64,000 bases of DNA, taken from the NCBI RefSeq assembly GCF_013167455.1, contig NZ_CP038328.1; one strand, written 5' to 3'. Position numbers: made by a program. Below are positions 22,301 to 25,300 of this stretch, in pieces. Within the stretch, counting starts at the first letter, position 1. Each line of letters opens with the position of its first letter. The stretch comes from Escherichia coli O157:H7. Lineage in GTDB: Bacteria > Pseudomonadota > Gammaproteobacteria > Enterobacterales > Enterobacteriaceae.

Positions 22301-25300
22301 ACATCGACCCGAGCGTCTCCATCCACGCGCTTTGCGGTACGAAGTTTTGCGGATCGGCCTTACAACGGTCGATAGCCTGACGCCAGACTTTCGCCACCTG
22401 GCTGACATACGCCGGGCTACGTTGGCGGCCTTCAATTTTCACCGAAGCAATATTCGCCGCCATTAACTCCGGCAGCAGTTCCAGGGTATTGAGACTGGTT
22501 GGTTCTTCCAGCGCGTGATAGCGCTCGCCGTCCACCAGATAACGCCCTTTACATAGCGTCGGATAACCTGCGTTTTCGCCGTCCTGATAACGGTCGATCA
22601 GCACTTCGTTCAGGCGGGATTCCAGCCCCTGCGGCGTTTGCTGCCAGCGCACGAAACGGGCCGGAGAACACGCGCCCACGGTGTTGGGCGACTCACCCGT
22701 CAGATACGACGACAGATAGCAACGACCTTCCGACATAATGCACAGGCTGCCGAAAGCAAAGACTTCCAGCGGGACAGGTGTGACCCGTGCCAGTTGTTTC
22801 ACCTGATGAATCGACAACACGCGCGGCAGCACCACGCGAGCAACGTCAAAATGGCGATGATAAAAGTTAATCGCCTCTTCATTGGTCGCCGAAGCCTGCA
22901 CTGACACATGACGCTCAATATGCGGGTAACGCTCGGCGGCGTACTCTAGCATGGCGAGGTCGGCGAGGATCAGCGCGTCGGCACCCAGCTGCGCCGCCAT
23001 ATCCACGGCACGCTGCCAACGGGCGTAACCGTCCGGATGCGCAAAAGTGTTAATCGCGATGTGAAGTTTGCGGCGATGTTGATGGACAAAACTCACCGCT
23101 TCCTGCAATTTTTTCTCGGTAAAGTTAAGGCCGGCGAAGTGACGGGCATTGGTATCATCTTTTAGCCCGATATAAACAGCATCTGCGCCGTTTTCGATGG
23201 CCGCCTTAAGCGCCGGGAGATTTCCGGCAGGGCAGAGCAGCTCCATAATTTTTCCTGAAGGTTGCGCTATCAAAACGCAAAAATGTTAACGAACTGGGAT
23301 TTTAGTTAACCTTGCTGCGACAATTTTTGATTTAAGGCAGTTAAAGTTGTATTGGTGGTAGCAGCAATTTCATATGGAATTGTTGATTTATACCGCTATG
23401 TTATTTTTCTGATATGGCAAAATAGGATGATTGTTGAAACAGGGAGTAAAACTCGTGTTGGATAAACTGCGTTCCCGTATTGTGCATTTGGGGCCATCTC
23501 TGTTGAGTGTACCGGTAAAACTGACGCCATTTGCGCTAAAACGCCAGGTTCTTGAGCAGGTCTTAAGCTGGCAATTCCGCCAGGCGCTGGATGATGGTGA
23601 GCTGGAGTTTCTTGAAGGCCGCTGGTTAAGTATTCATGTGCGTGATATTGACCTGCAATGGTTTACCTCGGTGGTGAATGGCAAACTGGTGGTCAGCCAG
23701 AACGCGCAAGCTGATGTGAGTTTTAGTGCCGACGCCAGCGATCTGCTGATGATTGCGGCGCGTAAACAAGATCCGGATACGCTCTTCTTCCAGCGTCGGC
23801 TGGTGATTGAAGGCGATACGGAGCTGGGGCTGTATGTGAAAAACCTGATGGACGCCATTGAACTGGAGCAAATGCCGAAAGCCTTACGCATGATGCTGCT
23901 GCAACTGGCGGATTTTGTTGAGGCGGGAATGAAAACCGCGCCTGAAACCAAACAGACATCGGTAGGTGAACCATGCTAATTCGAGTAGAAATTCCCATTG
24001 ATGCGCCGGGTATTGATGCCCTGCTGCGTCGTTCATTCGAAAGTGATGCGGAAGCGAAGCTGGTTCACGATCTGCGTGAAGATGGCTTTCTGACGCTGGG
24101 GCTGGTGGCGACAGATGACGAAGGTCAGGTCATTGGCTATGTGGCATTTAGTCCGGTTGATGTGCAGGGCGAAGACCTGCAATGGGTCGGCATGGCACCG
24201 CTGGCGGTAGATGAAAAATACCGTGGACAGGGGCTGGCACGCCAACTGGTCTATGAAGGACTCGATTCGCTTAATGAGTTCGGCTATGCCGCAGTGGTGA
24301 CGCTGGGCGATCCGGCGCTATACAGCCGTTTCGGCTTTGAACTGGCGGCGCATCACGATCTGCGTTGCCGCTGGCCGGGCACTGAAAGCGCCTTCCAGGT
24401 ACATCGTTTAGCGGATGACGCGTTGAATGGCGTAACTGGTCTGGTTGAGTATCACGAGCATTTCAATCGCTTTTAATCTCCGGGGTTTGCAGACTGCTTA
24501 ACAGCTTTGCAAACCCTGCGCCTTCCGCTACCAGACGCTCTTTTTGCCGTTTGGTCAGTTGCTTAACGCGATATTCCGCCCGTAACGCCAGCGAACGATC
24601 GCCCACTGGCGCAGAAAACGCCAGCGTCAGTTCTCCTTTCCCGCGCAGTGCTTTCGCCCCTTTGCCGCTTTGGTGCTGCTGATAGCGGCGTTCGACATCC
24701 GTGGTGATCCCGGTATAAAGCTTATTGTCGGCGGTACGGATCAAGTAAAGAAACCAGGGTGTCATCGTCTGCGTCGCATGTTAAGGTCAGGCCCACAGTA
24801 TAAAAGAGAACAGCAATGGAAACACTCACCGCCATCAGCCGTTGGCTGGCAAAACAACATGTTGTCACCTGGTGTGTGCAGCAGGAAGGGGAACTCTGGT
24901 GCGCCAATGCCTTTTATCTGTTTGATGTGCAGAAAGTCGCCTTCTACATTTTGACGGAAGAAAAAACGCGCCACGCGCAGATGAGTGGGCCGCAGGCTGC
25001 GGTTGCCGGAACGGTAAACGGTCAGCCGAAAACGGTAGCGTTAATTCGCGGCGTGCAGTTTAAAGGTGAGATCCGCAGGCTGGAAGGTGAGGAAAGCGAC
25101 CTCGCGCGCAAGGCGTACAATCGTCGCTTTCCGGTTGCCAGAATGCTGTCGGCCCCGGTGTGGGAAATCCGGCCCGATGAAATCAAATTCACCGACAACA
25201 CGCTGGGCTTTGGTAAAAAAATGATTTGGCTACGCGGCTCAGGCACCGAGCAGGCGTAACGCCTCGCGGTTAAACGCTGGCAGATCGTCCGGTGTCCGGC

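What the first reader, a model, noticed from the sequence alone, without database searches (positions are those of the whole stretch)
23247..23454. Divergent ubiT / ubiUV control region with FNR-like half-sites
ubiT(+) and ubiU-ubiV(-) share a 200-bp AT-rich intergenic region. The genes are known to act in O2-independent ubiquinone synthesis and to be anaerobically induced. I see TTGAT and ATCAA half-sites (for example tttTTGATttaagg and gctATCAAaac) but no perfect TTGAT-N4-ATCAA palindrome.
Basis: partly seen in the sequence, partly recalled or inferred. Interest (0 to 1): 0.3.

Follow-up and report, generated by a model that had tools for sequence, protein, structure and literature searches.

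The report
Known FNR switch for ubiT/ubiUV
This 208-bp stretch of E. coli DNA is the already-characterised oxygen-sensing switch in which the regulator FNR binds two imperfect sites to turn on the genes for oxygen-independent ubiquinone synthesis, so the finding is correct but not new.

Summary
The window is E. coli. Positions 23247-23454 are the 208-bp, 34% GC spacer between ubiUV (- strand) and ubiT (+ strand), identical to K-12. FNR ChIP-chip (2007) and ChIP-seq (2013) place a peak here. Arias-Cartin et al. (mBio 2023) showed by mutagenesis that two FNR boxes drive the two divergent promoters: F1 TTGATTTAAGGCAG (23327-23340) for ubiUVp and F2 TTGATTTATACCGC (23383-23396) for ubiTp2. A third promoter, ubiTp1, is constitutive.

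Its second example (ATCAA, 23269-23273) is not an FNR half-site. The partner half matches 0/5, the motif is not conserved even in E. albertii, and it lies in the loop of a predicted hairpin in the ubiUV 5'UTR.

My own tests agree with class II activation. F1 is centred at -41.5 and F2 at -40.5 from their -10 elements. In 116 gammaproteobacterial loci, 91 carry an exact TTGAT-N4-GGCAG, and 93 of 101 near-matches have the -10 at exactly the E. coli spacing.

One thing remains unexplained: the non-consensus half GGCAG is as invariant as TTGAT, even where ubiT is not adjacent. Interest is low; novelty is "already known".

The parts
23247..23454 (.). ubiU-ubiT divergent intergenic control region (208 bp, 34% GC)
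   Evidence: Bounded by the ubiU ATG (complement of 23246..23244) and the ubiT GTG at 23455. GC content. Identical to K-12.
22251..23246 (-). ubiU (yhbU), first gene of the ubiUV operon
   Evidence: NCBIfam equivalog quinone_UbiU, 560.5 bits against a cut-off of 440. RefSeq annotation.
21364..22242 (-). ubiV (yhbV), second gene of the operon
   Evidence: NCBIfam quinone_UbiV, 363.8 bits against a cut-off of 275. K-12 annotation.
23455..23979 (+). ubiT (yhbT), SCP2-domain accessory factor, GTG start
   Evidence: NCBIfam SCP2_dom_UbiT, 153.6 bits against a cut-off of 46.9. K-12 annotation gives 174 aa.
23973..24476 (+). yhbS/hqbA, overlaps the ubiT stop by 7 nt and is co-transcribed with ubiT
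   Evidence: ORF, K-12 annotation. PMC10710024 reports that hqbA is the second gene of the ubiT operon and is Fnr-induced.
23327..23340 (.). FNR box F1, TTGATTTAAGGCAG (7/10 to consensus), which activates ubiUVp
   Evidence: Exact string match to the F1 site of PMC10470549. Reverse complement of the Grainger 2007 predicted site. Coincides with the Myers ChIP-seq site. Exact TTGAT-N4-GGCAG in 91 of 116 loci.
23383..23396 (.). FNR box F2, TTGATTTATACCGC (7/10), which activates ubiTp2
   Evidence: Exact string match to the F2 site of PMC10470549. Conserved as TTGATnTAnnCCGC, centred 64-67 nt before the ubiT start in Enterobacteriaceae.
23299..23304 (-). ubiUVp -10 hexamer TAAAAT; implied TSS about 23291-23292, putting the F1 centre at -41.5 to -42.5
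   Evidence: A TAnnnT hexamer sits at exactly this spacing from F1 in 93 of 101 loci, against 0-1 at control offsets. The published distance of 36 nt gives 23291.
23415..23423 (+). ubiTp2 extended -10, TGgCAAAAT; implied TSS about 23429-23430, putting the F2 centre at -39.5 to -40.5
   Evidence: 50 of 80 divergent loci have a TTGAY box and TGnnAnAAT at the E. coli spacing. The published distance of 33 nt gives 23429.
23350..23355 (+). Putative ubiTp1 (constitutive promoter) -10, TATTGG; TSS about 23362-23364. A possible -35, TTGATT (23327-23332, spacer 17), is the left half of F1.
   Evidence: The GTATTGrT block is conserved in Enterobacteriaceae. Geometry. The published distance of 19 nt upstream of F2 gives 23364. 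The -35 assignment is my inference and is weakened by the report that mutF1 did not affect ubiT expression.
23262..23280 (-). Predicted stem-loop in the ubiUV 5'UTR (+13..+31).
   Evidence: ViennaRNA folds of 29 Enterobacteriaceae UTRs. Most put a hairpin at the same position with different stem sequences. Median z is only -0.95, and RNAalifold on an ungapped alignment gave no consensus.
23283..23312 (.). Near-invariant 30-bp block AATGTTAACGAACTGGGATTTTAGTTAACC around the ubiUVp core promoter, with two GTTAAC boxes (23285-23290 and 23305-23310) 20 bp apart
   Evidence: Conservation profile of 31 Enterobacteriaceae loci. No function assigned.
23351..23365 (.). Degenerate PdhR-box-like palindrome, ATTGGTGGTAGCAGC (9/12 to ATTGGTnnnACCAAT)
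   Evidence: 12/12 in five Citrobacter loci and 10-11/12 in several other genera at the same offset from F1. Consensus from PMC7660256, whose E. coli target list lacks ubiT.
23253..23256 (-). ubiU Shine-Dalgarno sequence (AGGA on the - strand)
   Evidence: Sequence. Conserved block 23247-23257.
23442..23446 (+). ubiT Shine-Dalgarno sequence (GGGAG)
   Evidence: Sequence. Conserved block CAGGGAGTAAA.

Best explanation
The region is a compact divergent control region with two independent class II FNR-activated promoters and one constitutive promoter. When O2 falls, [4Fe-4S]-FNR dimerises and binds two imperfect boxes.

- F1 (23327-23340) is centred about 41.5 bp upstream of the ubiUV start site on the - strand. 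It recruits RNA polymerase to a promoter that has a good -10 (TAAAAT) but no -35, so ubiUV is essentially off in air.
- F2 (23383-23396) is centred about 40.5 bp upstream of ubiTp2, an extended -10 promoter (TGgCAAAAT) on the + strand. It boosts ubiT, and the co-transcribed hqbA/yhbS, anaerobically.
- ubiTp1 lies between the two boxes and supplies basal UbiT in air.

The result is anaerobic and microaerobic production of the UbiU-UbiV hydroxylase and more of its partner UbiT for O2-independent ubiquinone synthesis.

Shown by published experiments: FNR occupancy, FNR dependence, the requirement for each box, and the independence of the two boxes. Shown here: box positions, the fixed box-to-(-10) geometry, and deep conservation. 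Inferred: the class II contact mechanism, by analogy with other FNR promoters centred at -40.5 to -42.5.
For: Literature.
- Arias-Cartin 2023 identifies F1 and F2 with exactly these strings. Mutating F1 abolishes UbiV, mutating F2 abolishes anaerobic induction of UbiT but leaves the basal level, and there is no cross-effect.
- FNR ChIP-chip gives the same predicted site.
- FNR ChIP-seq has its summit on F1, and yhbU/yhbV RNA falls to 0.07/0.115 in the fnr mutant.
- UbiT induction is about 35-fold, Fnr-dependent and ArcA-independent.
- yhbUV belongs to a small conserved anaerobic stimulon in Dickeya, Pectobacterium, E. coli and Yersinia.
- An FNR motif lies upstream of ubiT or ubiU in 87% of 1566 loci across Pseudomonadota.

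- The spacer is identical to K-12.
- F1 is centred at -41.5 from the TAAAAT-implied start and F2 at -40.5 from the TGgCAAAAT-implied start, within 1-2 nt of the published distances.
- 91 of 116 loci have an exact TTGAT-N4-GGCAG.
- 93 of 101 near-matches have TAnnnT at exactly the same spacing, against 0-1 at seven control offsets.
- 50 of 80 divergent loci keep the F2 box and extended -10 at the E. coli spacing.
- The phylogenetic footprint resolves F1, F2 and all three -10 elements as separate conserved islands in otherwise variable DNA.
Against: Both boxes are poor matches to the consensus (7/10). The published PWM score (-8.72) is below the genome-wide prediction threshold (-10.75). From the E. 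coli sequence alone, two such sites are only marginally unexpected (P about 0.05). I could not read the primary TSS data (Thomason 2015 is not held), so the start sites rest on distances quoted by Arias-Cartin and on -10 positions, with 1-2 nt of ambiguity. The class II protein contacts were not tested for these promoters. The strict conservation of the non-consensus halves (GGCAG, CCGC) is not predicted by a simple weak-FNR-site model.
Confidence: 0.93

Rival explanations
1. Composite-site model. FNR is necessary, but box F1 also encodes a second, unrecognised specificity. This could be a co-regulator that reads the GGCAG half, or a strict requirement for one particular weak half-site that sets the O2 threshold or the geometry of activation.
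For: GGCAG is as invariant as TTGAT. Positions 10-14 are G98/G100/C101/A101/G98 of 101 sites, and 91 of 116 loci are exact, spanning Enterobacterales, Vibrionales and Moritella. The DNA between F1 and the -10 varies freely. The conservation persists in Vibrionaceae loci where ubiT is not the divergent neighbour (29 of 38 exact), so overlap with ubiTp1 does not explain it. The right half of F2 (CCGC) is also fixed in Enterobacteriaceae.
Against: Conservation stops at the edges of the 14-mer, which is the size of an FNR footprint, so a second protein is not required. GGCAG keeps the C12-A13 step that matches the consensus. No known motif that I tried fits. In Alteromonadales and Shewanella the equivalent box has AACAA, ATTAA or AATAA instead. 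This shows that an ordinary FNR right half works at this position.
Confidence: 0.18
2. The half-sites are chance occurrences in AT-rich promoter DNA, and anaerobic induction is indirect or due to another regulator such as ArcA.
For: Consensus-like 14-mers are common: 318 in the window against 269 expected. The two sites are only marginally significant in E. coli alone. The PWM score is below threshold.
Against: ChIP-chip and ChIP-seq peaks lie on F1. Site-directed mutations at the chromosomal locus abolish induction. ArcA has no effect on UbiT. Conservation and spacing are extreme.
Confidence: 0.01
3. The ATCAA at 23269-23273 quoted by the first reader is a third FNR half-site, for example a downstream repressing or looping site at about +21 of ubiUVp.
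For: It is a perfect pentamer, and ATCAA is observed once against 0.19 expected in shuffles.
Against: The partner half GGTTG matches 0/5. The pentamer lies in the least conserved part of the spacer and is already GTCAA in E. albertii. It falls in the loop of the predicted 5'UTR hairpin, where other genera have unrelated loops. The published work needs only F1 and F2.
Confidence: 0.02
4. Promoter-swap model (an add-on to the main explanation). The TTGATT of F1 doubles as the -35 of the constitutive ubiTp1, and F2 lies at about +26 of ubiTp1. FNR bound at both boxes would then shut ubiTp1 while it turns on ubiTp2.
For: TTGATT-N17-TATTGG predicts a start at about 23362, within 2 nt of the published ubiTp1 position. 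The TATTGr -10 is conserved at a fixed distance from F1 in Enterobacteriaceae and Erwiniaceae.
Against: Arias-Cartin report that the F1 mutation did not affect ubiT expression, and they do not report repression of ubiTp1 by FNR. If mutF1 altered TTGAT, a real -35 role would have lowered basal UbiT. I could not see which bases were changed or whether this was tested in air.
Confidence: 0.25

Closest known systems
The published E. coli ubiT-ubiUV FNR control region (Arias-Cartin et al., mBio 2023, PMC10470549)
   Same: It is the same locus. The 208-bp spacer is identical to K-12, and F1 and F2 match the published strings exactly.
   Different: Nothing differs in sequence.
Class II FNR-activated promoters such as narG, dmsA, nirB, nrfA, yfiD and focA (sites centred -40.5 to -42.5; Myers 2013, Table 1)
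   Same: One FNR box overlaps the -35 region, centred at -41.5 (ubiUVp) or -40.5 (ubiTp2). Each promoter has a recognisable -10 and no usable -35, and depends strictly on FNR.
   Different: Each box keeps only one consensus half (7/10), with a PWM score below the genome-wide threshold. Two such promoters sit back to back, 56 bp apart centre to centre, and act independently.
Candidate FNR motifs upstream of ubiT/ubiU across Pseudomonadota (ISME J 2024, PMC11707229); per that paper, regulation by FNR or FNR homologs was formally shown only in E. coli and P. aeruginosa
   Same: An FNR-family box lies upstream of ubiU and/or ubiT. In 96% of loci with the divergent architecture, a site is predicted between the two genes.
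   Different: That survey searched for palindromic motifs and did not describe the asymmetric TTGAT-N4-GGCAG form or its fixed spacing to the -10.
PdhR box (AATTGGTnnnACCAATT), the operator of the pyruvate-sensing repressor of ndh and cyo
   Same: A 15-bp palindrome at the ubiTp1 -10/+1 matches it 12/12 in Citrobacter and 10-11/12 in several other genera.
   Different: In the window (Escherichia) the right half is degraded (9/12), and ubiT is not among the E. coli PdhR gSELEX targets. No binding data exist for the other genera.

Membership tests
Class II FNR-activated promoter (FNR regulon) | A 14-bp box resembling TTGAT-N4-ATCAA | tested here: met
   F1 and F2 each have a perfect left half and score 7/10 overall. 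The match is weak: the published PWM ln(p) of -8.72 is poorer than the -10.75 cut-off.
Class II FNR-activated promoter (FNR regulon) | Box centred about 41.5 bp upstream of the transcription start | tested here: met
   F1 is at -41.5 and F2 at -40.5 from the starts implied by the -10 hexamers, or -42.5 and -39.5 using the published distances. The spacing is invariant in 93 of 101 loci. Primary TSS data could not be read.
Class II FNR-activated promoter (FNR regulon) | FNR occupies the site in vivo | not testable with these tools
   Literature only: ChIP-chip (PMC1802558) and ChIP-seq, detected by every peak-calling method and dataset column in their table (PMC3688515).
Class II FNR-activated promoter (FNR regulon) | Expression depends on fnr and on the intact box | not testable with these tools
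   Literature only: PMC10470549 (reporter fusions and chromosomal mutF1/mutF2), PMC3688515 RNA ratios and PMC10710024.
Class II FNR-activated promoter (FNR regulon) | Box conserved in orthologous promoters | tested here: met
   91 of 116 loci carry an exact TTGAT-N4-GGCAG upstream of ubiU, and 50 of 80 have the F2 box and extended -10 at the E. coli spacing.
UbiT/UbiU/UbiV O2-independent ubiquinone pathway | Proteins pass curated equivalog models | tested here: met
   UbiU scores 560.5 bits (cut-off 440), UbiV 363.8 (cut-off 275) and UbiT 153.6 (cut-off 46.9).
PdhR-regulated promoter | Palindrome ATTGGTnnnACCAAT | tested here: not met
   The window scores 9/12 with a degraded right half, and ubiT is absent from the E. 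coli PdhR target list. The feature is met (12/12) only in Citrobacter loci such as L079 and L102.
Sigma-54 promoter (considered as an explanation for GGCAG) | GG-N10-GC spacing of the -24/-12 elements (TGGCAC-N5-TTGCW) | tested here: not met
   By inspection of the sequence. E. coli has GGCAG-N6-TTGT, which is wrong in both spacing and the GC dinucleotide. Other genera have GG-N9-GC.
Described RNA family in the spacer | Rfam covariance-model match at or above the gathering score | tested here: not met
   The only hit is CRISPR-DR22 at 21.9 bits against a gathering score of 50, E = 0.055.

The most novel reading that the evidence does not exclude
The FNR box of the ubiUV promoter is a fixed asymmetric element, TTGAT-N4-GGCAG. 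Its non-consensus half has been held invariant from Escherichia to Vibrio and Moritella, independently of whether ubiT is adjacent. This implies a specific constraint that nobody has described. It could be a second factor that reads this half, or a requirement for exactly this weak half-site to set the O2 level or the geometry at which FNR switches on anaerobic ubiquinone synthesis.
Probability: 0.18. Interest if true: 0.45.

Novelty: already known. Interest (0 to 1): 0.15.

Why it matters
The switch decides when E. coli and its relatives make ubiquinone without oxygen. That capacity supports nitrate respiration, anaerobic pyrimidine synthesis and the anaerobic-to-aerobic transition in the gut (PMC10470549). 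All of this is published, so confirming it here adds little.

The modest added value is comparative:
- The promoter architecture (box, spacing, -10) is one of the most rigidly conserved FNR promoters I could document, which agrees with yhbUV being part of the core anaerobic stimulon.
- The conserved non-consensus half-sites give a concrete, testable case for asking why weak transcription-factor sites are sometimes frozen rather than drifting.

Tried and rejected
- Consensus counting in the window: sites with <=3 mismatches number 318 against 269 expected, which does not discriminate.
- The generic sigma-70 scan found only TTGATA-N17-AATTAT on the - strand (23273..23245). It overlaps the ubiU start codon, and the scan found 1 site against 0.7 expected, so I rejected it as chance.
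- Thomason 2015 TSS tables are not held. I used the quoted distances and the -10 positions instead.
- I had no FNR PWM of my own, so I used the published PatSer score and threshold.
- Rfam gave only a sub-threshold CRISPR-DR22 hit.
- Small ORFs in the spacer (for example 37 aa, 23352-23465) start upstream of the mapped start sites, and the conservation pattern is not codon-like. Rejected.
- RNAalifold on an ungapped alignment of 24 UTRs returned no consensus structure, because the hairpins shift register. The hairpin therefore rests on per-species folds with modest z-scores.
- Explanations tried for the conserved GGCAG:
  - Overlap with ubiTp1: refuted by Vibrionaceae loci that have no ubiT within the upstream sequence searched.
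  - Sigma-54 -24/-12 elements: the spacing is wrong.
  - Motifs recalled from memory and compared by eye, with no fit, so treated as leads only: IscR type 2, ArcA direct repeats, NarL heptamers, marbox, IHF and the TrpR operator.
- PdhR box: perfect in Citrobacter, but degraded in the window and not a reported E. coli target.
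Full report
**Identity of the locus.** The window around the finding is E. coli. A 901-bp query across the region is 100% identical to O157:H7 strains and is present in 5424 of 5426 complete E. coli genomes, where it is annotated ubiU and ubiT. The ubiU start codon is the complement of 23246..23244. ubiT starts with GTG at 23455, preceded by GGGAG. The three proteins pass the NCBIfam equivalog cut-offs for UbiU, UbiV and UbiT.

**The observation.**
- TTGAT occurs at 23327 and 23383, and ATCAA at 23269.
- There is no perfect palindrome. The two best 14-mers, TTGATTTAAGGCAG (23327-23340) and TTGATTTATACCGC (23383-23396), each score 7/10.
- On sequence alone this is weak. 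Three-mismatch matches are nearly as common as chance across the window (318 against 269).
- Two sites with one perfect half and at least 2/5 in the other occur in 5% of composition-matched shuffles of the spacer.

**What is already known.**
- Grainger et al. 2007 listed yhbT/yhbU as an FNR ChIP-chip target with predicted site TTTAACTGCCTTAAATCAAAAATT, the reverse complement of the first 14-mer.
- Myers et al. 2013 found an FNR ChIP-seq peak (summit 3,299,423; predicted site 3,299,421 in K-12 v2), positive in every peak-calling method and dataset column of their table.
  - Its PWM score was ln(p) = -8.72, poorer than their genome-wide cut-off of -10.75.
  - RNA ratios (fnr mutant over wild type) were 0.07 for yhbU, 0.115 for yhbV and 0.49 for yhbT.
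  - F1 is centred at 3,301,397.5 in K-12 v3. Subtracting the roughly 1,977-bp difference between versions, which I take from my own knowledge of the two assemblies, gives 3,299,420.5, which is their site.
- Arias-Cartin et al. 2023 named the two 14-mers F1 and F2.
  - They placed F1 36 nt upstream of ubiUVp. F2 lies 33 nt upstream of ubiTp2 and 19 nt downstream of ubiTp1.
  - With GFP fusions and chromosomal mutations they showed that F1 is needed for UbiV production. F2 is needed for anaerobic induction of UbiT, but not for its basal level.
  - Neither mutation affected the other promoter.
- A PNAS 2023 paper independently confirmed about 35-fold Fnr-dependent, ArcA-independent induction of UbiT, and co-induction of the downstream gene hqbA/yhbS.
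- An ISME J 2024 survey found FNR motifs upstream of ubiT or ubiU in 87% of 1566 loci.

**Geometry (my analysis).** On the ubiU strand, the hexamer TAAAAT (23304..23299) implies a start at 23292 and puts the centre of F1 (23333.5) at -41.5. On the ubiT strand, TGgCAAAAT (23415-23423) is an extended -10. It implies a start at 23430 and puts the centre of F2 (23389.5) at -40.5. The published distances give 23291 and 23429. Both values are within the range of validated class II FNR promoters in Myers' Table 1. ubiTp1 fits TTGATT-N17-TATTGG with a start near 23362-23364. That would make the left half of F1 its -35, but the report that mutF1 did not affect ubiT expression argues against this or leaves it untested in air.

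**Related loci.**
- I scanned the species-representative genome collection with a pattern back-translated from the ubiU N-terminus, which lies outside the spacer. This returned 120 loci from Enterobacterales, Vibrionales, Alteromonadales and Aeromonadales.
- 79 of them have ubiT as the divergent neighbour of ubiU.
- FNR-like 14-mers are enriched in these spacers relative to shuffles: 231 against 135 +/- 11 at 7/10 or better.
- Anchored and full alignments show a clean phylogenetic footprint.
- The conserved islands are the ubiU SD, a 30-bp block around the ubiUVp -10 and start, F1 with its flanks, the ubiTp1 -10, F2 with its flanks, the ubiTp2 extended -10, and the ubiT SD. Variable, indel-rich DNA separates them.
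- 91 of 116 loci have an exact TTGAT-N4-GGCAG upstream of ubiU.
- 93 of 101 near-matches have TAnnnT exactly 28 nt from the first T of the box, against 0-1 at seven control offsets.
- 50 of 80 divergent loci keep a TTGAY box and TGnnAnAAT at the E. coli spacing before ubiT.
- Published transcriptomes place yhbUV in a small core anaerobic stimulon in Dickeya, Pectobacterium, E. coli and Yersinia.

It lies in the least conserved part of the spacer and is GTCAA in E. albertii. In the ubiUV 5'UTR (start about 23292) it is the complement of the loop UUGAU of a predicted hairpin at +13..+31 (23262-23280). In 29 Enterobacteriaceae UTRs, most fold a hairpin at the same place with unrelated stem sequences. 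Individual z-scores are modest (median -0.95), and RNAalifold on an ungapped alignment found no consensus. I report the hairpin as a lead only.

**What remains unexplained.** The non-consensus half of F1 (GGCAG) is as invariant as TTGAT, and the right half of F2 (CCGC) is fixed within Enterobacteriaceae. I tested whether overlap with ubiTp1 explains GGCAG. It does not, because Vibrionaceae loci without a divergent ubiT still carry it (29 of 38 exact). In Alteromonadales and Shewanella the equivalent box has a more ordinary right half. No motif I tried fits. I give 0.18 to the reading that this asymmetry encodes something specific beyond a weak FNR site.

**Other features seen in passing.**
- Two GTTAAC boxes 20 bp apart bracket the ubiUVp -10 and start within a near-invariant 30-bp block.
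- A PdhR-box-like palindrome sits over the ubiTp1 -10. It is perfect in Citrobacter, 10-11/12 in several other genera, and degraded (9/12) in Escherichia. The PdhR consensus is confirmed in PMC7660256, whose E. coli target list lacks ubiT.

**Verdict.** The finding is real and correctly interpreted in outline. One quoted half-site is wrong and one true site was missed, and the whole is already explained in the literature. Interest is low.

Noticed in passing
window 23336-23340 (and 23393-23396); loci L002-L121: The non-consensus right half of FNR box F1 (GGCAG) is invariant in 91 of 116 gammaproteobacterial loci, including Vibrionaceae loci where ubiT is not adjacent. The right half of F2 (CCGC) is fixed in Enterobacteriaceae. 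This is not predicted by a simple degenerate-site model, and the papers I read do not mention it.
   Followed up: partly
window 23262-23280 (- strand): A predicted stem-loop lies in the ubiUV 5'UTR at +13..+31. Most of 29 Enterobacteriaceae UTRs fold a hairpin at the same position with different stem sequences. Support is modest (median z -0.95; RNAalifold found no consensus on an ungapped alignment).
   Followed up: partly
window 23283-23312: A near-invariant 30-bp block, AATGTTAACGAACTGGGATTTTAGTTAACC, surrounds the ubiUVp -10 and start. It contains two palindromic GTTAAC boxes 20 bp apart (23285-23290, 23305-23310). This is more conservation than a -10 hexamer needs, so it may be an operator. 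No regulator was identified.
   Followed up: partly
window 23351-23365; L079, L102, L098, L094, L016 at +24 from F1: A palindrome over the ubiTp1 -10 matches the PdhR box ATTGGTnnnACCAAT 12/12 in five Citrobacter loci and 10-11/12 in loci labelled Enterobacter, Kluyvera, Pseudocitrobacter, Pluralibacter and Superficieibacter. It is degraded to 9/12 in Escherichia. This suggests lineage-specific pyruvate (PdhR) control of the aerobic ubiT promoter.
   Followed up: partly
window 23973-24476 (+): yhbS/hqbA overlaps the ubiT stop codon by 7 nt. The literature describes it as the second gene of the ubiT operon. It encodes an acetyltransferase that modulates Hfq RNA binding, and it is Fnr-induced but also expressed aerobically from a possible internal promoter (PMC10710024). 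It matched no NCBIfam model at E <= 1e-5.
   Followed up: partly
window 20276-21283 (yhbW, -) and 18915-20159 (mtr, +): In the Myers 2013 expression table, the neighbouring gene yhbW is 6.8-fold higher in the fnr mutant. mtr, yhbS and yhbQ are about 2-fold lower. FNR effects may therefore extend beyond ubiTUV in this neighbourhood.
   Followed up: no
L026, L093, L049, L040, L065, L002 (Shewanella, Thalassotalea, Alteromonadaceae, Colwellia, Thalassomonas): The box at the F1-equivalent position (66-81 nt from the ubiU ATG) has a more consensus-like right half (AACAA, ATTAA or AATAA). Three of the six loci (L026, L093, L049) also have a weaker left half (TTGAC). This suggests that the strength of the two halves trades off between lineages.
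   Followed up: no
window 23273..23245 (- strand): The generic sigma-70 scan reports TTGATA-N17-AATTAT overlapping the ubiU start codon. The scan found 1 site against 0.7 expected, so this is judged to be chance.
   Followed up: yes
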